DNA from: a bacterium
Lineage (GTDB): Bacteria; Patescibacteriota; Minisyncoccia; Phycocordibacterales; JAKAEA01
Assembly (NCBI GenBank): GCA_021818465.1
Contig: JAKAEA010000001.1
Span: 235,662 to 299,661 of the forward strand
Length of the DNA stretch: 64,000 nt
Reading direction: 5' to 3'
The notes beneath the pieces were generated by a model. It ran no database searches and was not told the DNA's origin. It was given only the letters and a program-made list of their open reading frames with translations. Positions within the stretch are counted from its first letter, which is position 1. Each line of letters opens with the position of its first letter. Shown here in pieces: positions 4,356 through 20,131 of this stretch. Position numbers and translations under genes: made by a program.

Positions 4356-5033
4356 ATGAAAGGAACTATGACGAGAAAGGGTTGTAATGTGGCACGTGCG
4401 TTGTGCAAGGCAAGTGGTGCAGGTGTTATACCCGCAACGCAGGCCGAGGAAATTCTAGGACGAGGGTACATAGGTGTTGCTGCGGGATGTGCATGTAATT
4501 TTTATTTCAGTCATCATGATCGGGTGTATTTGTGTGTCGTTGCGATGACCGAAGATGAACTCCTGACATGTCAGCAAACACATATACTAGTTGCAGTACC
4601 CGCCGGATCTCTTGTGGAGCATCGACAGATTATGGACACCGTTATTCACTCAAAACAGTCGTTGCATTATCTGTACGAACACGAACATGAAGACGGTTTC
4701 CATGAGCAACAATTTGCAACGGAACGTGGTGAAGCAGAATGGTGGCTCATACGTCGTCAGTTGGTTTCCGAAAAACAAACGCTTCTTAATGGGGAATGTG
4801 CAGTGTCAGCGCGGGCAGCAGATTACAGCATCTTTATGTGTGCGCAGCTTTTGGGGGAACGTTTGTTTTGGCAATGTGAGGCTTGCTGTTGTGATCGTCT
4901 AAAGGACGGTCGACAGGTTGCTCTTGATAATTTTAATCGAACATTCCCGTTCTTTTCATATCATATTCCTAACCAGTCACAATCGAATGTAAGTGGAGTG
5001 ATCGTTGGCCGAAAACTGGAGCTGAAACTTTAA
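4356..5033 (+). CDS. hypothetical Cys-rich protein
   Basis: Strong RBS (AAGGAGG) 7 nt upstream of the ATG. 225-aa ORF with a CEACCCD cysteine cluster. No family recognised. Confidence 0.45.
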   Translation: MKGTMTRKGCNVARALCKASGAGVIPATQAEEILGRGYIGVAAGCACNFYFSHHDRVYLCVVAMTEDELLTCQQTHILVAVPAGSLVEHRQIMDTVIHSKQSLHYLYEHEHEDGFHEQQFATERGEAEWWLIRRQLVSEKQTLLNGECAVSARAADYSIFMCAQLLGERLFWQCEACCCDRLKDGRQVALDNFNRTFPFFSYHIPNQSQSNVSGVIVGRKLELKL

Positions 5034-11757: not shown

Positions 11758-13350
11758 ATGCCTCAAAAAATATTCAGACCACCAACTCTTGTTGAGTTTT
11801 CTCATAAGGAATCAAAAATCCAAAAAACTATTGCCGATAAACAACTTGATTTTATATGTCAAAAAGATAGCGCTTTTTGGAGTCAAGAGCGCAAGAAACA
11901 ATTATTTTCTCTTTTTAAAACTTCGGTAAAAACTCTACCAGCGTATCAAGAATTTCTTACTCGAGCTGGTGTTGATTATAAGAAAATTACTACGTTCGAA
12001 CAGTTTTCGAAAACTGTTCCGCCAGTTAGTAAGGATAATTATCTCAGAACATATTCTTGGAAACAATTATGCGCCCCCGGCGCACTCACGGGTCAATCGT
12101 TAGTGTTGACATCAACTTCTGGATCGACAGGAAAACCCTTTTATTTTCCTCGTAATGGTATTCTCGATACTCAATCGTCGCTCTATCATCAAATGTATTT
12201 GCGTAATAGCGGTATTGATCCTGATAAATCAACGTTGGTGATTGTGTGTTTTGGTATGGGTGTGTGGATTGGCGGTCTTATCACGTATCAAGCCTTTAAA
12301 TATATTGCTGAGCGAGGTCATCCAATGACTATTATTACGCCCGGGGTCAATAAAAAGGAAATTTACGAAGCAATGAAAAATGTGGCACCGAATTACGATC
12401 AAATAATTCTTTGCGGATACCCGCCGTTTATGAAAGACGTGATTGATGAAGGGAAAGCTAATGGTGTTGAGTGGCGTGATTTTAATATTAAAATGAGTTT
12501 TGCGGCTGAAAGTTTTTCGGAAAAATTTCGCGATTATCTTCTTCGTAAGACTGGTATGAAAAACCCTTATCGTGACACGGCCAATGTGTATGGCAGTGCT
12601 GATCTTGGCACGATGGCTATGGAAACACCGATCGCTATTCTTATTCGCCGCTTGGCTCTTCGAAACAAAAAAATCTATAAAAAACTTTTTGGAGATGCTA
12701 GTCGTCTACCGACTCTTGCCCAATTTATTCCATCATTTGTTAATTTTGAGGCGATTAATCGAAATATTTATGTCAGCGGTGACAATGTGTTGCCATTAGT
12801 TCGTTATCAGATTGGTGACAATGGTGGTGTTCTTGATTTTGCCGAAGTAGAGGAGGTTTTTAGTGAGGCGGGAGTTAACTTGCGCGCTAAGGCGGCGGCT
12901 ATTGGTATTACCGATACCATCGCCGAATTACCATTTGTCTATGTTTATGAACGGACCGATCTCTCTACAAAGCTTTATGGGGCGATTATTTATCCGGAGT
13001 ATGTAAAAGCCGGTCTTCAACATCCGACTCTGGAAAAATATATCACTGGCAAATTTACGATGTTTACGCAATATGATAAAAAACAAAACGAATATTTAGA
13101 AATAAATGTTGAATTAAAGCCCGGTATTGTTGAGTCAGACTGGCTTAATGAGAAACTTTTAAAGTTCGTTGTAGAATTTCTTTTAAATCGAAGTGCTGAG
13201 TATAAATATCTTACTGATATGCTTGGGACGCGCGTAAGTCCTAAAATTGTTTTTTGGCCTTATGAACATGCGACTCATTTCCAGGTTGGTATTAAGCAAA
13301 AGTGGGTAAAGAAGAATGATCAAGAAAAACGTAAAAATTTTAAAAAATAG
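11758..13350 (+). CDS. adenylate-forming enzyme, phenylacetate-CoA ligase (PaaK)/CapK/F390-synthetase-like
   Basis: P-loop-like TSTSGSTGKPFYFP typical of the PaaK-like ANL subfamily. 530 aa. Confidence 0.6.
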   Translation: MPQKIFRPPTLVEFSHKESKIQKTIADKQLDFICQKDSAFWSQERKKQLFSLFKTSVKTLPAYQEFLTRAGVDYKKITTFEQFSKTVPPVSKDNYLRTYSWKQLCAPGALTGQSLVLTSTSGSTGKPFYFPRNGILDTQSSLYHQMYLRNSGIDPDKSTLVIVCFGMGVWIGGLITYQAFKYIAERGHPMTIITPGVNKKEIYEAMKNVAPNYDQIILCGYPPFMKDVIDEGKANGVEWRDFNIKMSFAAESFSEKFRDYLLRKTGMKNPYRDTANVYGSADLGTMAMETPIAILIRRLALRNKKIYKKLFGDASRLPTLAQFIPSFVNFEAINRNIYVSGDNVLPLVRYQIGDNGGVLDFAEVEEVFSEAGVNLRAKAAAIGITDTIAELPFVYVYERTDLSTKLYGAIIYPEYVKAGLQHPTLEKYITGKFTMFTQYDKKQNEYLEINVELKPGIVESDWLNEKLLKFVVEFLLNRSAEYKYLTDMLGTRVSPKIVFWPYEHATHFQVGIKQKWVKKNDQEKRKNFKK

Positions 13351-14008
13351 TATAGTTGTCATAACTGGCGCTGGCCGGGGTTTGGGAAAATCGCTTGTTG
13401 CCGCTTTTACTAATCGTGAAGCACATGTTATTGCTTCTGATATTGATTCACGTCAATACAAAACTGATGTTCGAGATGAGGTTGAAGTAAAAAGATTAGC
13501 TGATGAAATTGTTAAAAAATTTGGTCAAATAGATATTTGGATAAACAATGCCGGTATTTGGTTACCGCGGATGTCAGTTCAAGAATTAGATATGAACCGT
13601 GTTCGGGAGATTTTTAATGTTAATGTCTTCGGTACAATACATGGCACTCGAGCCGCCCTGAAAATTATGGAGCATCAAGGAAAGGGAACTATCGTCAATA
13701 TTGTTTCTACTGCCGCGCTCGTTGGTCGACCGTTCTTTGCAACCTATTCGGCGAGCAAGCATGCTGAAAAAGGTTTTACGGATTCTGTGCGAGAAGAGTT
13801 GAGAGAGCAAGGAAGCAATGTCTCCATTATCGGTATTTATCCCGGTGGTATAAAAACCAACCTTTTTGATGAGAAAAAACCTGATGATTTTGCTAAGTAT
13901 ATGGAGCCAGAATTTGTCGCGGAAGCCATTGTTGCGAACTTAGAAAAGGAAAAGCCGGAACCCGACCTCATTCTTAAACGACCAGGTCAAGATATCAAAT
14001 TTAAATAG
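13316..14008 (+). CDS. short-chain dehydrogenase/reductase (SDR)
   Basis: VVITGAGRGLGKSL (TGxxxGxG), NNAGI, and the YSASK catalytic YxxxK. Confidence 0.8.
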   Translation: MIKKNVKILKNSIVVITGAGRGLGKSLVAAFTNREAHVIASDIDSRQYKTDVRDEVEVKRLADEIVKKFGQIDIWINNAGIWLPRMSVQELDMNRVREIFNVNVFGTIHGTRAALKIMEHQGKGTIVNIVSTAALVGRPFFATYSASKHAEKGFTDSVREELREQGSNVSIIGIYPGGIKTNLFDEKKPDDFAKYMEPEFVAEAIVANLEKEKPEPDLILKRPGQDIKFK

Positions 14009-14093
14009 CTAAAATTTAGTCACACCTTGGACGGTGCATGTACTCTTTTAAAGATGGTAGTATAGGGGTATTAGTAAATTCATTTTTAATACT

Positions 14094-15272
14094 ATGCTTT
14101 CACTTCATGAGATGTTAGAGAAAAAAGATGACGTTGGTGCAAAACCGATATTTTTTGATTTGTCCCAAACTGCCGATCAAAACAAACTCTCCGCACTTTT
14201 TGCTGACAATAAAATCCAACACGTTTCCGATGATTTTGAAGAACAGCACCAAGAATTATTTGCAGTCAGAAATCCGACGATTGTCTATACGGCGGGTTTC
14301 AAAGAAAAATTTAAAAAATATTACGAGGAACTAAAAACTCAAAAGCCTCTTCAGGAACATGGCCATTGGGTCTATTTTCCATGGCTCTCGAAAATTGTTC
14401 ATATTTTAGCTGAAGAAGATTTTTTTATTGTTCGAACTGCACGCAATAAAAATCTCATTAATACCGAGGAGCAAGAAAAATTTCACAATGCCAAAATAGG
14501 TATTGGTGGTTTATCGGTTGGTTCAAGCGTCGCCTACGCTATGACTCTTCAAGGTGGGCCGAAACACGTCAAACTTGCCGATATGGATCGTCTTGCCCTT
14601 TCCAATACGAATCGCATTCTTTCTGGTGTTGATAATCTCGGAATGCTCAAAGTAGAAATGGCCGCTCGTTTCATGTATCAGATTAACCCATATATGGAAA
14701 TAGAACTTTACCCCGACGGCCTGACTCCTGAAAATATTGAAGGGTTTTGCAAAGACTTAGATGTAGTGATTGATGAGCTTGATAATTTATCGGTGAAATT
14801 TTTGATTCGTGAACAAGCCAAAAAATATAAAATACCAGTCGTTATGGCTGCTGATAATGGTGACAATGCTGTAGTAGACGTTGAACGGTATGATTTAGAG
14901 CCGGATATGCCGTACTTTCATGGTCGTATGGGTGATGTCTCATACGACATGCTCACAAAATTAGATAAATTCGGTATCGGCAAAATGATCACCAAGCACG
15001 TTGGTCCGGAAAATGTGACCGAACGAATGCAGCAATCGCTCATGGAGATGGGGAAGACTATTGTCTCTTGGCCCCAACTTGGCGGCGCGGCTTTGATTAA
15101 TGGCGCGGCTGTGGCTTATTGTGTGCGAAAAATTCTGAACAGTCAGCCACTGGAGAAAAATCGCGCCCTTGTGTATTTGGACGAAAAACTTATTCCGACC
15201 TGGAACGAGCCGACCGAAATAAAAAAACGTGCCGCTATCGCCGATGGTTTTCGGAAAATTTTTGGGTTGTAA
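14094..15272 (+). CDS. E1-like ThiF/MoeB-family adenylyltransferase with ~130-aa N-terminal extension
   Basis: Rossmann motif GIGGLSVGS and the E1 signature DMDRLALSNTNR (DxDxxxxSNLNR). There are no CxxC zinc motifs. The N-terminal extension is unassigned. Confidence 0.7.
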   Translation: MLSLHEMLEKKDDVGAKPIFFDLSQTADQNKLSALFADNKIQHVSDDFEEQHQELFAVRNPTIVYTAGFKEKFKKYYEELKTQKPLQEHGHWVYFPWLSKIVHILAEEDFFIVRTARNKNLINTEEQEKFHNAKIGIGGLSVGSSVAYAMTLQGGPKHVKLADMDRLALSNTNRILSGVDNLGMLKVEMAARFMYQINPYMEIELYPDGLTPENIEGFCKDLDVVIDELDNLSVKFLIREQAKKYKIPVVMAADNGDNAVVDVERYDLEPDMPYFHGRMGDVSYDMLTKLDKFGIGKMITKHVGPENVTERMQQSLMEMGKTIVSWPQLGGAALINGAAVAYCVRKILNSQPLEKNRALVYLDEKLIPTWNEPTEIKKRAAIADGFRKIFGL

Positions 15273-15288
15273 TTATTTTAGTTTAATT

Positions 15289-16092
15289 CTATTTATTATT
15301 TTTTTGAGAATTTTTACCCAGTCTCTTAGCTTCCTCCCAGGCGAGATCAAAAACACTCTTCATAACGTCTGCCATTTCTTTACTTTCAACACTTATCGCT
15401 ATACCCCCGTGGTCGTGAGAAGCATAGGCAATTTTGTTATCGTAAATGACTAAATCGGCGGATATTTTGTATTTGTCTGGTGGTATGAGTATTGGTTTGT
15501 CAAGATTTTTAGTGTTATATCTAAGTAAATTTCGATTAAACTCATTATCGGGATGGATACCATGCATTTTGATATTTAATTGGTATCTTTTTTGTAAATA
15601 TTGCGGCATATAGTCACCCATGATTTCTCTAAGATTTTCTGTGGCGGAAATCACCCGCATCAATTTTTCTTTTGTTTTAAGAGTCTCTTCAAAAGCGCTA
15701 ATTAAACCTTCTTTTCCTTCAAATACTCGAACTTTCGGTTTTTGTTTAGTATCTTTATGTAAGGCTTTTAGTTCTGGTAATATTTTCTCAATTTTATTTA
15801 AAATATTTTCTTGCTTATCCACCATATTTTCGGCGGTATGAAGTAAAATATCAGGAGAAGTGGCGATATACTGTCGAACATCCTTATCGTCTGAGATACT
15901 TACTAATCCTTTTTTTATAAGAGATTCAAGTACGACATAAATTGTGCTTCTATTGATTTCGGTATGTCGAGAGATTTCTTGCACGGGAGCAATTTCAAGT
16001 TCAAGCAACGCTACGTAAATACGTGCCTCTTTTTCATTAAGACCAAATTCTATAAGAGTTTTAGTAAGCATAGTGTTAATGGGTGTTAACAA
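15289..16092 (-). CDS. TrmB-family transcriptional regulator
   Basis: N-terminal wHTH (LIEFGLNEKEARIYVALLELEIAPVQEISRHTEINRSTIYVVLESLIKKGLV). Divergently oriented from the small peptide gene. Confidence 0.7.
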   Translation of the reverse strand: MLTPINTMLTKTLIEFGLNEKEARIYVALLELEIAPVQEISRHTEINRSTIYVVLESLIKKGLVSISDDKDVRQYIATSPDILLHTAENMVDKQENILNKIEKILPELKALHKDTKQKPKVRVFEGKEGLISAFEETLKTKEKLMRVISATENLREIMGDYMPQYLQKRYQLNIKMHGIHPDNEFNRNLLRYNTKNLDKPILIPPDKYKISADLVIYDNKIAYASHDHGGIAISVESKEMADVMKSVFDLAWEEAKRLGKNSQKNNK

Positions 16093-16143
16093 TATTGTTA
16101 TAATTTACGTTTCGAAACTATTTTTGTTGTTATAGTATAACAA
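16088..16143. promoter_or_regulatory. two palindromic operator-like sites sharing a TTGTTATA half-site in the divergent intergenic region
   Basis: AACAATATTGTT at 16088-16099 (extending to TTGTTATAA) and TTGTTATAgTATAACAA at 16127-16143 are perfect inverted repeats. They lie between the TrmB regulator and the peptide gene. Confidence 0.4.
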
Positions 16144-16345
16144 CACAATAGAAATAATACAAGCTACTAGCGAATTAGTGCGGTGATAATTTTTTTTAGC
16201 AGTAGTTGTTTATAGGGAAAAAGTATTGTCTCGTGATTGTTATATGTTTACAACATTTTTGAAGGGTTTATTTTTTAGTTAGATAAAAAGTTGGAGTGCG
16301 TGATTTGTATATCAACTCATTGAAAAAAGAAAGGAGGTGATTATC

Positions 16346-16450
16346 ATGGCAAACCAACCAACAGGCCCCCATGGGGGTTCGTCGGGTGGCACTAGTACCG
16401 GCAACAATGGTTCGGGCGGTGGCTCTCACGGTGGTCCTCGAGGAGGATAA
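16346..16450 (+). CDS. 34-aa Gly/Ser-rich small peptide (MANQPTGPHGGSSGGTSTGNNGSGGGSHGGPRGG)
   Basis: Not in the ORF track (<60 aa). A perfect RBS (AAAGGAGGTG) lies 7 nt upstream of the ATG, and a rho-independent terminator follows immediately. No Cys. Ser/Thr sit in a Gly-rich context. Confidence 0.55.
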   Translation: MANQPTGPHGGSSGGTSTGNNGSGGGSHGGPRGG

Positions 16451-16471
16451 TTTCTCGTCGGACTATAGTAG

Positions 16472-16505
16472 AATAGGGTGAGAGTTTTCTCACCCTATTT
16501 CTAAT
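16472..16505 (+). terminator. rho-independent terminator after the small peptide gene
   Basis: AGGGTGAGA-gttt-TCTCACCCT, a 9-bp perfect stem followed by a T-rich tract. Confidence 0.7.
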
Positions 16506-16519
16506 TTATATAAAAATAT

Positions 16520-16789
16520 ATGTCTAATAAAAATAATATAAAATATCCTGTTGTTTTTATTATCTACAGAGATATCGTTCTCTGGGAGAGTCAGGTTAAG
16601 ATTAAAAGTGGTTTTCCTGTACATATTTTTCACGCAGTTGGTTTTTTAATTGAAGATAATACTGATAATTATGTTATTGCCCGAGAGATTGTGACAAATC
16701 AAAATGACGATCTCCGAGGGGCAATGACTATTCCCAAAGAAACAATCTTGCATTTTGAAAAGATCAAAGAAAATAAAATAATTTCTTAA
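16520..16789 (+). CDS. hypothetical protein (89 aa)
   Basis: ORF inside the AT-rich island with no recognisable motifs. Confidence 0.35.
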   Translation: MSNKNNIKYPVVFIIYRDIVLWESQVKIKSGFPVHIFHAVGFLIEDNTDNYVIAREIVTNQNDDLRGAMTIPKETILHFEKIKENKIIS

Positions 16790-16811
16790 AGATTAGCATA
16801 TTGTTATTTTT

Positions 16812-17309
16812 ATGAAATTAAAATCTACTCTCACCAATCGTTCAGGCAAAATATTGTCTGTTATTTATTCGGAAAAAGATCCTCTCATTGGCTTAGAAGG
16901 GAAAATTTTGCAAGGCGTTCACGCTTTTTGTTTTTGGGGAAATCACATGGTATTGGTGCATCATCCTAAAAGTGGGTGGATGCCACCGGGTGGTGGCATT
17001 GAACGTAATGAAAATTATATAGAAGCGACGTTACGAGAAGTTAAAGAGGAAACAAATATGAAAGTCACGTATCTAAAAACAATCGGTTTTCAGGATACAT
17101 ATGAGCCGGGGAAAGTGGTCCGACAGGTGCGGAATTTTTGTTTAGTTGAACCGTGTGGAGATTTTACATCAGATCCCGATGGTGAAATTATGGAAATTAA
17201 ACTTATTAGACCGGAAGACTATAAACAATATTTTGATTGGGGCGAAATTGGCGATAGAATTATGACGCAAGCGTTGAAATATAAGAGTAAAATAGCCGGG
17301 ATTTTATAA
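16812..17309 (+). CDS. NUDIX hydrolase
   Basis: Nudix box GGGIERNENYIEATLREVKEETN (Gx5Ex7REUxEExGU). Confidence 0.8.
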   Translation: MKLKSTLTNRSGKILSVIYSEKDPLIGLEGKILQGVHAFCFWGNHMVLVHHPKSGWMPPGGGIERNENYIEATLREVKEETNMKVTYLKTIGFQDTYEPGKVVRQVRNFCLVEPCGDFTSDPDGEIMEIKLIRPEDYKQYFDWGEIGDRIMTQALKYKSKIAGIL

Positions 17310-17381
17310 ACTTCTTATATTATTTGGTCTATCTAAGCTTATGAGATATAATCTTAATATCGAAAGTTATTGTGTTTTTCT

Positions 17382-18416
17382 ATGAAAGAAAACTATAAAG
17401 CTTGGCAAATAGATCTGAACTCTTTCAAAGAGCTTAAAACTGAAGTTGAGAGATTAAAATTTTTCTTAAAATTTGCCGTATTAGCTCCTTCGAGTCATAA
17501 TTCACAACCTTGGTTATTTTCAGTTTCTGAAAATAGTATTCAAGTTTATCGAGCAAAGTTTCGTTCTCTTCCTATCGCTGATGTAAATAATCGTCAACTT
17601 TTTTTAAGTATTGGTTGTGCTATTGAACATATTGTTATTGCTGCTCAGTATTATGGATATAGCACTAATGTAGAATATAAGGACGATTTAATTAACCCCA
17701 ATCTTGCTGCTATTATCACGTTTAGAAAAGAAGAAAAAAAAATTCAAACAATCGAAAGTTTACGTTATATCCAAGCTATTCTAAAAAGAAAGACAAATCG
17801 TGGTAAATACAAAAAAGAAAAAATTTTAGAAAATTTATTGGAAAAAATAGAAAAGTTAAAAACTCCCAATCTTAATATATATGTGATTAGTGATACTGAA
17901 AAAATATCTAGACTTGCCGATATTGCCGTTCAAGCTTCTATTGAATCAATGGTTGACGATAATTTTCGTTTAGAACTCTCTCATCATCTTAAACATAATT
18001 TAACAAAATCTAAAATTGGCATGCCTGGTTTTAGTTTGGGTTTGCCGACGCTGGTTTCATTTTTATTACCACATTTAATGAAACAATTTAATTTGGAACG
18101 AGTAGCTCAAAAACAAAACGAGAAATTATTTAAAAAACATACTCCATATATAGTTATATTAACGACTAACGGTGATTCACGAAAAGATTGGCTAGAAGCT
18201 GGCCGAGTATTTGAACAGATTACCCTTACTCTAACGCACGATAATATTAGCGTGTCTCCTTGGGGTGCGCCAATTCAAATAGGAGAATTTTACAGAAATA
18301 TTCAGAAAATTCTTCACACTAGTTTTCGGCCACAGATGTTTTTTCGAGTAGGGTATGCTCAAAAAAAAGCAAGATTTAGTCCTAGATTAATAGTTGAAGA
18401 TGTTCTGGATAAATAG
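17382..18416 (+). CDS. nitroreductase-family protein, Acg/tandem-nitroreductase-like
   Basis: APSSHNSQPW motif and a ~340-aa length consistent with the double nitroreductase fold. The ATG at 17382 is preferred over the TTG at 17370. Confidence 0.6.
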   Translation: MKENYKAWQIDLNSFKELKTEVERLKFFLKFAVLAPSSHNSQPWLFSVSENSIQVYRAKFRSLPIADVNNRQLFLSIGCAIEHIVIAAQYYGYSTNVEYKDDLINPNLAAIITFRKEEKKIQTIESLRYIQAILKRKTNRGKYKKEKILENLLEKIEKLKTPNLNIYVISDTEKISRLADIAVQASIESMVDDNFRLELSHHLKHNLTKSKIGMPGFSLGLPTLVSFLLPHLMKQFNLERVAQKQNEKLFKKHTPYIVILTTNGDSRKDWLEAGRVFEQITLTLTHDNISVSPWGAPIQIGEFYRNIQKILHTSFRPQMFFRVGYAQKKARFSPRLIVEDVLDK

Positions 18417-18526
18417 TTTTAATTCTAGTTTAGTAAGACCATGCTAAAGTCTAGAGCTTAAAGAATGGAGGATGATTTCGCATAAATAAGTTATAAGGTG
18501 TATGCTATATACAATATAGCAAAAAT

Positions 18527-20131
18527 ATGACTTTTGTATTCAATATAGATATTCTATCGGTTGGAATTGCGATTGCGGCTAATATAATTCTTGGTTTCGT
18601 AATTTTTGTTTCAAACAAAAGAAATATTACTACAACTCTATTTTTTTTACAGACAATTATATTATCTTTATGGAGCGTTGCTAATTATTTAACATATCAG
18701 ATTACTGATTTACAAATATCTTTATGGATGGAAAGAATGGTTATATTTTTAGCTGTTCCTAATTCGATTGTTTTTCTTTTACTTATGTATCATTTTCCTG
18801 AAAAACGCTGGTTGCTTTCTAGGAAAATAACACTTATTGGATTCGTTGTTGTTGTAAGTACAATGTTTTTAACATTAACTCCTTATATTTTTTCGGGCGT
18901 GCGATTAGTTGCTGGTATTCCAACTCCACAACCAGTAGTTCAGCCAGGGATTCTTTTATTTGCTGTAGTTTCGGTGCTCTCAATTCCGGTTGGAATTTAT
19001 TTCTTAATTGTTAAGTATGTAAAAAGTACTCAATTAAATAAATCACGAATTGGTTATTTGTTATTGGGAGCAATAATTATGTTTCTTTTTATTGTAATAT
19101 TAGATTTTGTATTTCCGGTCTTCATAAACGATACTCAATTTATTCCTTTTAGTGCAGTTTTTACCTTTCCTTTTGTAGGATTTACTTTTTATTCAATCTA
19201 TAGGCATCAACTTTTTAATATACGAGCAGCGTTAGTGGCTGGTCTAACATTTATTCTTTCTGTTTCAGCTTTCATTGAAATAATTTTTTCAACAACAGTG
19301 TCGGTGATAATTTTGCGTAGTGCGGTCTTTATCCTTGTGCTGGCTATCAGTATTATGATGAATCGTTTTGTGCAGACAATTGCTGAACAGCGTGAAAAAT
19401 TGGTAGTTGCCAATGAGGGTCAACAACAATTCATCCACTACCTCAATCACGAGTCAAAGGGGTACTTGACTGATGACAACGTAGTGCTCGCGGCGGTGCG
19501 GGATCAGGATTTCGGGCCGACCTCGCCGGAACTGCAGAAGATGGCCACCACCGTGTTGCGCAAGAACGCGCGGGCGGTGGATGATATTGACGAAATGATT
19601 CTCGGCGCCGACCTCGGCAGCGGGGTGGTGCGCTACACTATGGAGCCGTTTGATCTGGCTGCCGCGACACGCACCTTTGTGGACGAGTATCGACCGGACG
19701 CTGAGGAGAAACAGCAGAAGCTGGAGTTTCGTTTGGAACCGGCCGACGGCGACTTTACGGTGGTGGGCGACAAGCGACGCCTCATCCGCCATGCCCTGAA
19801 AAATTATCTCAAGAATGCCATCGTCTACACGCCCGTCGGCGGAACGATTAGTGTGACGCTCTCGCGGGTGCCGGCGGCGAAGGCGGGCGAGCCGGCGCGC
19901 GTGCGGCTCGCCGTGCACGACTCGGGTGTCGGTATTGCGCCGGAGGACAAGCCACGACTCTTTACCGAGGGTGGCAAGGGTCTCCATTCTACCGACGTCA
20001 ATCCCAACTCCACTGGCCGCGGCCTCTTCATCGTCAAGCAAATTTTGGACGCCCACCACGGCCGCGTTTTTGCCGACTCCGAGGGCGCTGGCAAAGGCGC
20101 GACGTTTGGGTTTGAGGTGCCAGTAGGGTAG
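18527..20131 (+). CDS. membrane sensor histidine kinase (polytopic N-terminal sensor, C-terminal HATPase)
   Basis: About 7 TM helices, then an H-box-like IHYLNHESKGYL and an HATPase_c domain (HDSGVGIAPEDKPRLF, GRGLFIVKQILDAHHGRV, GKGATFGFEVP). No response regulator is adjacent. The 3' ~700 nt are strikingly GC-rich. Confidence 0.75.
   Translation: MTFVFNIDILSVGIAIAANIILGFVIFVSNKRNITTTLFFLQTIILSLWSVANYLTYQITDLQISLWMERMVIFLAVPNSIVFLLLMYHFPEKRWLLSRKITLIGFVVVVSTMFLTLTPYIFSGVRLVAGIPTPQPVVQPGILLFAVVSVLSIPVGIYFLIVKYVKSTQLNKSRIGYLLLGAIIMFLFIVILDFVFPVFINDTQFIPFSAVFTFPFVGFTFYSIYRHQLFNIRAALVAGLTFILSVSAFIEIIFSTTVSVIILRSAVFILVLAISIMMNRFVQTIAEQREKLVVANEGQQQFIHYLNHESKGYLTDDNVVLAAVRDQDFGPTSPELQKMATTVLRKNARAVDDIDEMILGADLGSGVVRYTMEPFDLAAATRTFVDEYRPDAEEKQQKLEFRLEPADGDFTVVGDKRRLIRHALKNYLKNAIVYTPVGGTISVTLSRVPAAKAGEPARVRLAVHDSGVGIAPEDKPRLFTEGGKGLHSTDVNPNSTGRGLFIVKQILDAHHGRVFADSEGAGKGATFGFEVPVG

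What the first reader, a model, noticed from the sequence alone, without database searches (positions are those of the whole stretch)
16346..16505. Unannotated 34-aa Gly/Ser-rich peptide gene with perfect RBS and its own terminator
The ORF (MANQPTGPHGGSSGGTSTGNNGSGGGSHGGPRGG) is missing from the six-frame track because it is <60 aa. It has AAAGGAGGTG 7 nt upstream of the ATG and a 9-bp perfect-stem terminator immediately after the stop. This is the hallmark of a highly expressed small precursor or structural peptide. The Gly-rich context with Ser/Thr recalls microcin B17-type precursors, which are Gly/Ser/Cys-rich. This peptide has no Cys and no obvious leader/core split.
Basis: seen in the sequence. 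Interest (0 to 1): 0.7.

Follow-up and report, generated by a model that had tools for sequence, protein, structure and literature searches.

The report
Conserved glycine-rich microprotein and partner gene
This is a real, conserved 34-codon gene for a glycine-rich, positively charged mini-protein that always sits just upstream of a small beta-barrel protein gene in Patescibacteria (CPR bacteria); it is not the substrate of the neighbouring ThiF/nitroreductase enzymes, and its function is unknown.

Summary
The ORF is real. It runs from ATG 16346 to TAA 16450. AAAGGAGGTG lies 6 nt upstream, and a 12-13-bp hairpin plus U-rich tract starts 21 nt after the stop. Most genes in this genome lack a Shine-Dalgarno motif, so this one is exceptional.

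The gene is conserved. The 89-aa ORF just downstream (u89, 16520-16789) has six relatives in public data, and each is preceded by a homologous Gly-rich ORF. The shared core is GG-TSTGNNGSGGGS-[HRQ]-GG-x-RG-x. Core differences are mostly synonymous (window vs L173: 10 synonymous, 1 non-synonymous).

The constant partner is u89, a predicted Sm/SH3-like beta-barrel, not ThiF. The flanking ThiF and Acg-type flavoenzyme match the two halves of TrzS/Rv1355c, an oxazolone synthetase acting on N-acyl amino acids. In 80 other Patescibacteria species none of these ThiF loci has such a peptide, and ThiF and Acg usually abut. A TrmB-type regulator with palindromic operators (TGTTGT-N9-ACAACA) lies divergently upstream.

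Verdict: a genuine, probably abundant, cationic, disordered microprotein in a two-gene cassette. The microcin B17/C-type precursor reading is not supported. Function is unknown.

The parts
15289..16092 (-). TrmB-family winged-helix regulator, divergent from the peptide gene. The public gene call starts at ATG 16071 (260 aa).
   Evidence: Pfam PF01978, E = 1.8e-16. Homologs at 50-61% identity sit next to ThiF/Acg clusters or Gly-rich peptide genes in other loci.
16125..16145 (.). Operator-like perfect palindrome O1, TGTTGTTATAGTATAACAACA, 33 nt upstream of the TrmB start.
   Evidence: It is the only exact match in the window. Among the first 84 loci, the exact motif occurs almost only where the TrmB homolog is present, directly upstream of it. 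Variants lie upstream of TrmB in most of the metagenome loci examined. Binding is inferred, not shown.
16235..16255 (.). Second operator-like site O2, GATTGTTATATGTTTACAACA (2 mismatches). It overlaps the -35 of the predicted peptide promoter.
   Evidence: L084 has an equivalent second site in the aligned intergenic region.
16247..16274 (+). Sigma-70-like promoter candidate for the peptide gene (TTTACA, 16-nt spacer, TATTTT).
   Evidence: Consensus scan, 9 of 12 matches. This is a prediction only.
16330..16339 (+). Shine-Dalgarno AAAGGAGGTG, 6 nt before the ATG.
   Evidence: It is rare in this genome. Similar strong SDs precede the homologs in L172, L177 and L178.
16346..16450 (+). 34-aa Gly/Ser/Thr/Asn-rich cationic microprotein gene (pI 9.5, GRAVY -1.1, 2950 Da with Met).
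   Evidence: Family alignment with conserved core TSTGNNGSGGGS[HRQ]GG. Codon comparison gives 149 synonymous vs 72 non-synonymous pairwise differences, and one Ser column switches between TCN and AGY codons.
16471..16510 (+). Stem-loop (12-13 bp) plus U-rich tract between the peptide gene and u89; likely a partial terminator or attenuator.
   Evidence: A stem-loop of unrelated sequence occupies the same position after all nine related peptide genes, with seven of nine z-scores between -2.2 and -5.0.
16520..16789 (+). u89, the conserved partner gene: an 89-aa all-beta protein with invariant motifs GFL.E...RE...NQNDDLRGA..IPK.

Best explanation
The 34-codon ORF is a genuine, translated gene for a small, intrinsically disordered, cationic Gly/Ser/Thr/Asn-rich microprotein. 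It is the first gene of a conserved two-gene cassette. The second gene is u89, a small all-beta (Sm/SH3-like) protein.

Proposed mechanism:
1. A strong SD gives high translation of the peptide.
2. The stem-loop/U-tract between the genes lets only part of the transcripts continue into u89. The peptide is therefore made in large excess over its partner.
3. u89 then acts sub-stoichiometrically on or with the peptide, as a binding, assembly or chaperone-type partner.
4. In this genome the cassette sits behind a promoter overlapped by palindromic operators of the divergent TrmB-type regulator, which probably represses it.

The cassette lies between the two halves of an oxazolone-type ThiF/flavoenzyme cluster, but the peptide is not their substrate.

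Shown: the gene's existence, its signals, its conservation, purifying selection, the linkage to u89, and the lack of linkage to ThiF/Acg.

Inferred: repression by TrmB, attenuation by the hairpin, physical or functional interaction with u89, and the absence of post-translational modification. The cellular role remains unknown.
For: - ORF, SD and hairpin are present.
- SD is rare in this genome: 48 of 55 large ORFs have none, and AAGGAGGTG occurs twice in the window.
- The window plus all six u89 homolog clusters have a homologous Gly-rich ORF 46-77 nt upstream. The core is conserved.
- Substitutions are mostly synonymous. Window vs L173 gives 5 identical, 10 synonymous and 1 non-synonymous codons. 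The total is 149 synonymous vs 72 non-synonymous, and one Ser column uses both TCN and AGY codons. L084 vs L101 gives 14 synonymous vs 2 non-synonymous.
- Nucleotide similarity between cassettes is confined to the two coding regions.
- A stem-loop follows all nine related peptide genes.
- ThiF and Acg match the N- and C-halves of NF005901, the Rv1355c family. That family is TrzS, an oxazolone synthetase.
- In 80 species loci ThiF has Acg within 400 nt in 49, and none has a Gly-rich ORF.
- The other cassette loci have no ThiF, Acg or TrmB.
- The operator palindrome is tied to TrmB loci, and O2 overlaps the predicted -35.
Against: - There are no expression or peptide data.
- The family is small: seven u89 clusters, all from MAGs or metagenomes.
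- In L177 the peptide ORF appears frameshifted while u89 is intact. This could be an assembly error, or it could mean the peptide is dispensable there.
- The Sm/Hfq relationship fails at sequence level.
- Two TrmB-linked Gly-rich peptides (L084, L101) have no u89. In L101 the peptide is followed by C39-like peptidases, and in L103 the same slot holds a graspetide-like precursor plus an ATP-grasp maturase. This keeps a processed or secreted-peptide role alive.
- Radical-SAM and ATP-grasp genes lie near the cassette in L177 and L173.
Confidence: 0.55

Rival explanations
1. It is a leaderless or short-leader ribosomal peptide natural product (RiPP or bacteriocin-like). u89 would be its immunity or recognition partner, and variable neighbouring enzymes or peptidases would process it.
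For: - The operon architecture (abundant peptide gene, hairpin, accessory gene) is typical of RiPP and bacteriocin loci (established knowledge).
- Distribution is sporadic and context-independent, including a phage/plasmid-like region in L168.
- L101 has C39-like peptidases after the peptide. L103 has a leader-type precursor plus an ATP-grasp maturase in the same TrmB-controlled slot.
- Radical SAM genes lie near the cassette in L177, and an ATP-grasp plus a methyltransferase in L173.
- The longer homologs have 13-30-aa non-Gly N-termini.
Against: - No enzyme, exporter or peptidase is shared among the seven cassette contexts. Only u89 is constant.
- u89 is all-beta, not an RRE-type winged helix.
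- N-termini are variable and the core is conserved, the opposite of most RiPP families.
- There is no Cys and no hydrophobic segment.
- No RiPP precursor or bacteriocin family matched.
Confidence: 0.2
2. It is an input or output of the HisKA_7TM histidine-kinase circuit that recurs nearby, for example a signalling peptide or a kinase-regulated effector.
For: A kinase homologous to the window's HK lies near the peptide in four places:
- the window;
- L084;
- L165-167, at 28% identity over 366 aa with no ThiF/Acg nearby;
- L172, as a truncated remnant.
Against: - It is absent from L168, L173, L177 and L178.
- The peptide has no signal or export sequence and no response regulator was seen.
- In the window and L084 the kinase is simply part of the conserved ThiF cluster.
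- The adjacency could reflect a shared variable island.
Confidence: 0.1
3. It is the substrate of the adjacent ThiF-like enzyme. Its C-terminal Gly-Gly would be adenylated, as in a mini ubiquitin/ThiS-like tag or a microcin C-like precursor, or it would be heterocyclised as in microcin B17.
For: - The window peptide ends in RGG.
- ThiF and a nitroreductase-fold flavoenzyme flank it.
- The composition is Gly/Ser-rich, like McbA (my recollection of McbA).
Against: - The C-terminus is not conserved: GG, GK, GR, RG, HK.
- No peptide ends in Asn.
- No YcaO was found.
- The ThiF/Acg pair is of the TrzS type, which acts on N-acyl amino acids.
- 80 species have the enzymes without the peptide.
- The closest ThiF relative (87% identity, L083) has no such ORF on its contig.
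- Six cassettes lack the enzymes.
Confidence: 0.04
4. It is a glycine-codon leader peptide of a transcription attenuator that controls the downstream genes. The peptide itself would have no function.
For: The 34 codons include 14 Gly codons, and a terminator hairpin follows directly, upstream of further genes.
Against: - Non-Gly residues (T, S, N, H/R) are conserved through synonymous changes.
- The fold shows no convincing antiterminator competing with the terminator.
- The downstream genes (u89, NUDIX, Acg) are unrelated to glycine supply.
Confidence: 0.03
5. It is a spurious ORF in a GC-rich spacer.
For: Other frames of the same G-rich stretch are also open.
Against: It has a strong SD, it is conserved in six further lineages, and the frame-specific synonymous substitution pattern supports coding.
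Confidence: 0.01

Closest known systems
Microcin B17 precursor McbA with McbBCD (a linear azole peptide / TOMM system)
   Same: A Gly/Ser-rich small peptide. An E1/ThiF-like protein and a nitroreductase-fold flavoprotein are encoded nearby in the window.
   Different: - There is no YcaO, no conserved leader and no Cys.
- The ThiF/flavoenzyme pair belongs to the TrzS/Rv1355c oxazolone-synthetase type.
- That pair is conserved without the peptide, and the peptide travels with u89, not with these enzymes.
Microcin C (MccA heptapeptide with the MccB ThiF-like adenylyltransferase)
   Same: A very small peptide gene with a strong start, followed by a terminator hairpin before the next gene. A ThiF-family enzyme is in the neighbourhood.
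   Different: - No peptide in the family ends in Asn, and the family's C-terminus is variable.
- ThiF is not adjacent to the peptide in any other member.
- The ThiF here has the TrzS-type architecture.
Oxazolone synthetases OxzB, TyzB/TyzC and TrzS (Rv1355c). This comparison concerns the flanking genes, not the peptide.
   Same: A ThiF-like cyclase sits next to a flavin-dependent oxidase of the nitroreductase superfamily. The window ThiF matches the N-half of the Rv1355c family model at E = 3.7e-102, and the Acg-type protein matches the C-half.
   Different: - The two genes are split rather than fused.
- The upstream enzyme is a 530-aa protein with only weak PaaK-type adenylate-forming signals, not a GNAT-type N-acyltransferase.
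- A 7TM histidine kinase follows.
- The product is unknown.
Sm/LSm/Hfq barrels with Gly-rich or RG-rich disordered tails (eukaryotic SmB/D1/D3 and LSm4, the Hfq C-terminal tail; from my own knowledge)
   Different: - There is no sequence-level relationship (Pfam LSM gives no hit; hhalign probability is about 0.1%).
- The model has no N-terminal helix.
- The disordered part is a separate gene, upstream, and separated by a terminator.
- RNA binding is untested.
Class II bacteriocin plus immunity-gene pairs
   Same: A small cationic peptide gene is followed directly by a small partner gene, and the distribution is sporadic and cassette-like.
   Different: - There is no double-glycine leader, no hydrophobic or amphipathic segment and no exporter.
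- The partner is a soluble beta-barrel.
- A terminator lies between the two genes.
Small hydrophilic Gly-rich stress proteins (KGG-repeat YciG/GsiB type; from my own knowledge)
   Same: Small, very hydrophilic, Gly-rich, disordered, and under a dedicated regulator.
   Different: No match to the KGG repeat or to any Pfam/NCBIfam model. The obligatory u89 partner has no counterpart in those proteins.

Membership tests
Microcin B17 / linear azole peptide (TOMM) precursor | A YcaO cyclodehydratase is encoded in the cluster. | tested here: not met
   No YcaO among the ten neighbours scanned, nor among the Pfam-annotated gene calls within +/-8 kb.
Microcin B17 / linear azole peptide (TOMM) precursor | A conserved N-terminal leader recognised by the synthetase. 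| tested here: not met
   Family N-termini are variable in length and sequence. The window has only about 10 residues before the conserved core.
Microcin B17 / linear azole peptide (TOMM) precursor | A Cys/Ser/Thr-rich core that can be heterocyclised. | tested here: inconclusive
   Ser and Thr are present and conserved, but there is no Cys. Chemistry is not testable here.
Microcin B17 / linear azole peptide (TOMM) precursor | The peptide co-occurs with the E1-like and dehydrogenase genes across genomes. | tested here: not met
   80 ThiF loci have no Gly-rich ORF. Six cassette contexts have no ThiF or Acg.
Microcin C-type precursor (MccA/MccB) | A C-terminal Asn that is adenylated by an adjacent MccB. 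| tested here: not met
   C-termini are GG, GK, GR, RG and HK. ThiF is adjacent only in the window.
Ubiquitin-like / ThiS / MoaD / Pup-type tags | A conserved C-terminal Gly-Gly (or GGQ/GGE) used for activation. | tested here: not met
   Only the window and L173 end in GG. The others end in K, R, RG or HK.
Amino-acid attenuation leader peptide | Alternative antiterminator/terminator structures, and a downstream operon for the cognate amino acid. | tested here: not met
   No competing structure appears in the fold. Downstream genes are u89, NUDIX and a flavoenzyme. Non-Gly residues are under selection.
KGG-repeat stress proteins, and rSAM-associated Gly-rich repeat proteins (GRRM; family recalled from memory) | A match to the family profile. 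| tested here: not met
   No Pfam or NCBIfam family matched at E <= 10 for four family members or at E <= 0.01.
Sm/LSm/Hfq (for u89) | A five-stranded, strongly bent beta-sheet (the Sm fold). | tested here: inconclusive
Sm/LSm/Hfq (for u89) | Sm1/Sm2 sequence motifs, or a match to the family profile. | tested here: not met
   Pfam gives no hit at E <= 10. hhalign against E. coli Hfq and an archaeal SmAP1 (both sequences recalled from memory) gives a probability of about 0.1%.
Sm/LSm/Hfq (for u89) | Ring oligomer and RNA binding. | not testable with these tools
   Needs biochemistry or multimer modelling.
RiPP recognition element (PqqD-like; for u89) | A winged-helix fold with three helices and a three-stranded sheet. 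| tested here: not met
   The model is all-beta with no helix of 4 or more residues.
Oxazolone synthetase systems (OxzAB, TyzACB, TrzAS; for the flanking ThiF and Acg genes) | A ThiF-like cyclase adjacent to, or fused with, a flavin-dependent oxidase of the nitroreductase superfamily. | tested here: met
   NF005901 (Rv1355c family) matches ThiF over model positions 5-349 at E = 3.7e-102, and matches Acg over positions 371-653 at E = 2e-23. NF047509 (Acg family) matches at E = 4.6e-67. The two genes are within 400 nt in 49 of 80 species loci. The definition comes from PMC12856293.
Oxazolone synthetase systems (OxzAB, TyzACB, TrzAS; for the flanking ThiF and Acg genes) | An adjacent amino-acid N-acyltransferase (OxzA/TyzA/TrzA type). 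| tested here: not met
   The upstream gene is a 530-aa protein with no Pfam hit. It shows only weak acyl-CoA-ligase/PaaK-type signals: FlxY at E = 0.004, and AMP-binding_C_2 at E = 0.039 in a homolog. It is conserved directly upstream of ThiF in 67 of 80 loci.
TrmB-family transcription regulators (for ORF 15289-16092) | An N-terminal TrmB winged-helix domain, with a palindromic operator at its own promoter. | tested here: met
   PF01978 at E = 1.8e-16. The palindrome lies upstream of the gene in the window and in its homolog loci. DNA binding itself is not tested.

The most novel reading that the evidence does not exclude
The peptide and u89 form a previously undescribed two-component system of CPR bacteria. 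An abundant, disordered, RG-ended Gly-rich microprotein would work with a small Sm/SH3-like barrel. Two possible forms are a split 'barrel plus low-complexity tail' nucleic-acid chaperone or condensate-forming pair, or a new leaderless Gly-rich peptide effector with a dedicated barrel partner. The system would be carried as a mobile cassette, plugged into TrmB-type and 7TM-kinase regulatory circuits.
Probability: 0.2. Interest if true: 0.7.

Novelty: categorically new. Interest (0 to 1): 0.5.

Why it matters
It shows that a sub-60-aa ORF, invisible to ordinary six-frame and protein-database screens, is a real gene under selection. These peptides are absent from the 15-billion-protein collection. 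In one relative the public gene call even mis-reads the peptide region out of frame.

It defines a new microprotein/partner gene pair in the poorly understood Patescibacteria.

It also prevents a wrong assignment: proximity to ThiF and a nitroreductase looks like a microcin/RiPP cluster, but that pair is most likely a split oxazolone-type small-molecule pathway.

The label 'new' applies to the family and the gene-pair architecture. The function is unknown, the family is small, and many CPR genes are uncharacterised, so the interest is moderate, not high.

Tried and rejected
Searches that found nothing:
- Profile and word-index searches with the peptide returned only the L084 peptide itself.
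- The exact peptide sequences are not in the protein collection.
- A scan of 80 ThiF loci for Gly-rich ORFs found none.
- tblastn of u89 against annotated phages found no match, and IMG/VR holds no relative.
- A back-translated core motif in viral contigs gave one chance hit, in another frame of a 711-aa tail-fibre-like ORF.
- Rfam has no family for the region.
- Pfam, NCBIfam and PADLOC gave nothing for the peptide or u89.
- PDB sequence searches for u89 and for the 530-aa enzyme gave nothing useful.
- The afdb50 fold library was unavailable.

Ideas considered and rejected:
- A Gly attenuator.
- Stop-codon read-through fusing the peptide to u89. The two ORFs are in the same frame in the window, but the spacer contains four in-frame stops (read).
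- Sm/Hfq homology at sequence level.

Full report
OBSERVATION

The window comes from a 540-kb contig of a Patescibacteria MAG (GCA_027341405.1). The ORF runs from ATG 16346 to TAA 16448-16450 and encodes MANQPTGPHGGSSGGTSTGNNGSGGGSHGGPRGG. AAAGGAGGTG lies at 16330-16339, 6 nt before the ATG.

It has 12 perfect pairs, or 13 by the scan (16471-16500), and it starts 21 nt after the stop. A U-rich tract follows. Folding gives -20.9 kcal/mol with z = -4.0.

A gene caller did call this ORF on the public contig, but the sequence is absent from the large protein collection.

The SD is not routine here. 48 of 55 large ORFs in the window have no SD before their first ATG, and AAGGAGGTG occurs only twice in the 64 kb on both strands. 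The ORF has 61% GC inside 28-30% GC surroundings. No Rfam family matches the region.

NEIGHBOURHOOD

Upstream on the + strand lie three genes:
- a 530-aa protein with no Pfam match and a weak acyl-CoA-ligase signal;
- an SDR;
- a ThiF-family protein.

A TrmB-family regulator lies on the - strand, divergent from the peptide. Downstream of the peptide are u89 (89 aa, no family), a NUDIX hydrolase, an Acg-family FMN oxidoreductase and a HisKA_7TM histidine kinase.

The ThiF protein matches the N-terminal half of the 'Rv1355c family' model (E = 3.7e-102), and the Acg protein matches its C-terminal half. [quoted passage not shown] It converts N-acyl tryptophan to N-acyl tryptazolone. TyzB/TyzC and OxzB do the same with N-acyl Tyr/Phe (PMC12856293, PMC10404671). 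So these enzymes have a known small-molecule chemistry that needs no ribosomal peptide.

IS THE PEPTIDE PART OF THE ThiF/Acg CLUSTER? NO.

I fetched 80 loci from distinct Patescibacteria species through the ThiF protein. The 530-aa gene lies directly upstream of ThiF in 67 of them. Acg lies downstream on the same strand in 63, and within 400 nt in 49. The kinase commonly follows. None of the 80 loci contains a Gly-rich small ORF. The closest ThiF relative (87% identity, L083) has none on its contig either. In the window the TrmB-peptide-u89-NUDIX block therefore looks like an insertion between ThiF and Acg. That junction is also expanded in 14 other species.

THE REGULATOR

A 78%-identical ThiF relative (L084) has a TrmB homolog that is divergent from a 53-aa Gly-rich ORF with GGAGG and a terminator. 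The two intergenic regions share the palindrome TGTTGT-N9-ACAACA, present twice in each. In the window there is an exact copy at 16125-16145 and a 2-mismatch copy at 16235-16255. The second copy overlaps the -35 of the best + strand promoter candidate.

Among the first 84 loci, the exact palindrome occurs almost only where the TrmB homolog is present, directly upstream of it. Variants precede TrmB in most of the metagenome loci examined. This supports autoregulation and control of the divergent gene. Binding itself is inferred.

This TrmB subfamily is itself often next to ThiF/Acg/kinase genes.

A third TrmB-linked Gly-rich peptide (L101) is followed by two C39-like peptidases. In a close relative (L103) the same slot holds a leader-type precursor and an ATP-grasp peptide maturase.

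Between L084 and L101, 14 of 19 aligned codons differ only synonymously and 2 differ non-synonymously.

THE CONSTANT PARTNER IS u89

u89 has six homolog clusters at 59-80% identity. I looked up all six. Each has a Gly-rich ORF 46-77 nt upstream of the u89 homolog. The aligned family is shown:
- L165: MLRTTHSAGGNGGSGTGQTGGNGGGSSTGNNGSGGGSRGGPRGK
- L168: MGYGKKGGTGGTSSGNNGSGGGSRGSGRPPRG
- L172: MQTKEVTWIGPRYNKGGGNGGSGTGQTGGNGGGTSTGNNGSGGGSRGGTRGR
- L173: MSAQVEYVWKRVAHGKGNGGTGTHGGNSGGTSTGNNGSGGGSQGGSGRGG
- L178: MSKSNPHQGSSGGHSTGNEGSGGGSHGVGNGGGGHK
- L177: a frameshifted copy

Over the 16-codon core, pairwise differences total 149 synonymous vs 72 non-synonymous. Window vs L173 gives 10 vs 1, and window vs L172 gives 8 vs 1. 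One Ser column alternates between TCN and AGY codons. This is frame-specific purifying selection, so the ORF is translated.

Nucleotide similarity between cassettes is limited to the two coding regions. These loci contain no ThiF, Acg or TrmB. Their contexts differ:
- L168 is phage- or plasmid-like (HNH, RusA, ParB_N, NUMOD3, SLT).
- L165 lies between dnaK/dnaJ and a SET-domain gene plus a kinase.
- L173 is near an ATP-grasp and a methyltransferase.
- L177 is near two radical-SAM genes.

Two lineages carry a second, divergent u89 paralog after the first.

All nine related peptide genes are followed by a stem-loop plus U-tract of unrelated sequence.

WHAT THE TWO PROTEINS LOOK LIKE

The peptides are 29-53 aa, 38-55% Gly and 60-77% G/S/T/N. 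They are basic (pI 7.9-12) and very hydrophilic, and have almost no acidic residues and no hydrophobic segment. They are therefore expected to be disordered and soluble. Their N-termini vary, while the C-terminal core and a basic RG-type end are conserved.

At sequence level there is no relation to LSM or Hfq. No relatives occur in annotated phages or in IMG/VR.

MECHANISM, WITH ITS STATUS

Shown:
- a real, selected microprotein gene with exceptional translation signals;
- obligatory linkage to u89;
- a structured spacer between the two genes;
- no linkage to ThiF/Acg.

Inferred:
- The TrmB homolog represses the peptide promoter through O2.
- The hairpin terminates most transcripts, so the peptide greatly outnumbers u89.
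- u89 acts on or with the peptide sub-stoichiometrically.
- The peptide is not modified by ThiF/Acg.

The cellular role is open. The candidates, in my order of likelihood, are:
1. an abundant disordered cofactor or partner of the barrel protein, possibly nucleic-acid related;
2. a processed or secreted peptide (bacteriocin- or RiPP-like);
3. a component of the 7TM-kinase circuit that recurs nearby.

COMPARISON WITH KNOWN SYSTEMS AND NOVELTY

Every family I tested fails at least one defining feature:
- microcin B17/TOMM: no YcaO, no leader, no co-occurrence;
- microcin C: no C-terminal Asn;
- ubiquitin-like tags: the C-terminus is not conserved;
- attenuation leaders: no alternative structure, and the residues are under selection;
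- KGG and GRRM Gly-rich proteins: no profile match;
- Sm/Hfq and RRE, for u89.

The flanking enzymes, by contrast, fit the oxazolone-synthetase kind, except for the acylating enzyme. I therefore rate the peptide-u89 pair as an undescribed family and architecture. Its function is unknown and its known distribution is narrow, so the interest is moderate.

Noticed in passing
window 11758-20131; loci L003-L082: A conserved Patescibacteria cluster: a 530-aa PaaK-like(?) enzyme, a ThiF (TrzS N-half type), an Acg-family flavin oxidase and a HisKA_7TM histidine kinase. Across 80 species, the 530-aa gene is directly upstream of ThiF in 67 and Acg is within 400 nt in 49. It may be a split oxazolone-type pathway coupled to a sensor kinase. 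The oxazolone paper I read does not mention CPR.
   Followed up: partly
L103 1376-2462, compared with L101 2476-4010: Behind the same conserved TrmB-linked promoter region, L103 has a leader-type precursor (MKKPKVVNQISLEELRANMAQGIWRITRHHCG) plus an ATP-grasp ribosomal-peptide maturase homolog (TIGR04187, E = 2.5e-15). L101 has the Gly-rich peptide plus two C39-like peptidases. This looks like a swappable peptide slot in CPR genomes.
   Followed up: partly
window 18527-20131; L165 7981-9633; L172 1580-1745 (-): A histidine kinase homologous to the window's 7TM kinase recurs near the Gly-rich peptide gene in unrelated contexts. In L172 it survives only as a truncated N-terminal remnant divergent from the peptide. 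Whether this reflects function or an integration hot-spot is unresolved.
   Followed up: partly
window 18527-20131: GC content jumps from about 32% to about 48% near position 19000, inside the histidine-kinase gene (7TM half vs kinase half). This suggests a recombination junction at the edge of a low-GC region spanning about 11-19 kb.
   Followed up: no
window 4356-5033: The only other AAGGAGGTG-type SD in the window precedes a 225-aa ORF with no Pfam match. SD use is otherwise rare in this genome (48 of 55 large ORFs have none).
   Followed up: partly
L165 6001-6414: The public gene call (137 aa, P0123) fuses an out-of-frame reading of the Gly-rich ORF to the u89 homolog. This is an annotation artefact that hides the peptide gene.
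   Followed up: yes
L177 3646-3811: The peptide gene starts like the window's (SD plus ATG GCC AAC), but its Gly-rich core lies in another frame after an A-run, while u89 is intact. It is either a pseudogene or an assembly error in a single-run contig.
   Followed up: partly
L023 10669-10878 (-): A 69-aa very hydrophilic ORF with a GGAGG SD (MGKFSDSSGTFRSGTDGRGNVSSDRVEHGGSSSHEH...) lies between ThiF and Acg in another species. It has no family match, and its relation to the Gly-rich peptides is unclear.
   Followed up: no
L084 1-6554 and 15370-15694: A SpvB/RHS-type polymorphic toxin with a C-terminal ribonuclease and a Barstar immunity gene lies near the ThiF cluster. Two further small hydrophilic ORFs (57 and 29 aa) with SDs follow the Gly-rich peptide, and the 57-aa ORF is preceded by the TrmB-type palindrome.
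   Followed up: no
L165 6443-6649; L170 517-753; L172 2339-2650: A second, divergent u89 paralog (21-34% identity) directly follows u89 in two lineages. It keeps the GFLI.ED ... RG..TIPK motifs.
   Followed up: partly
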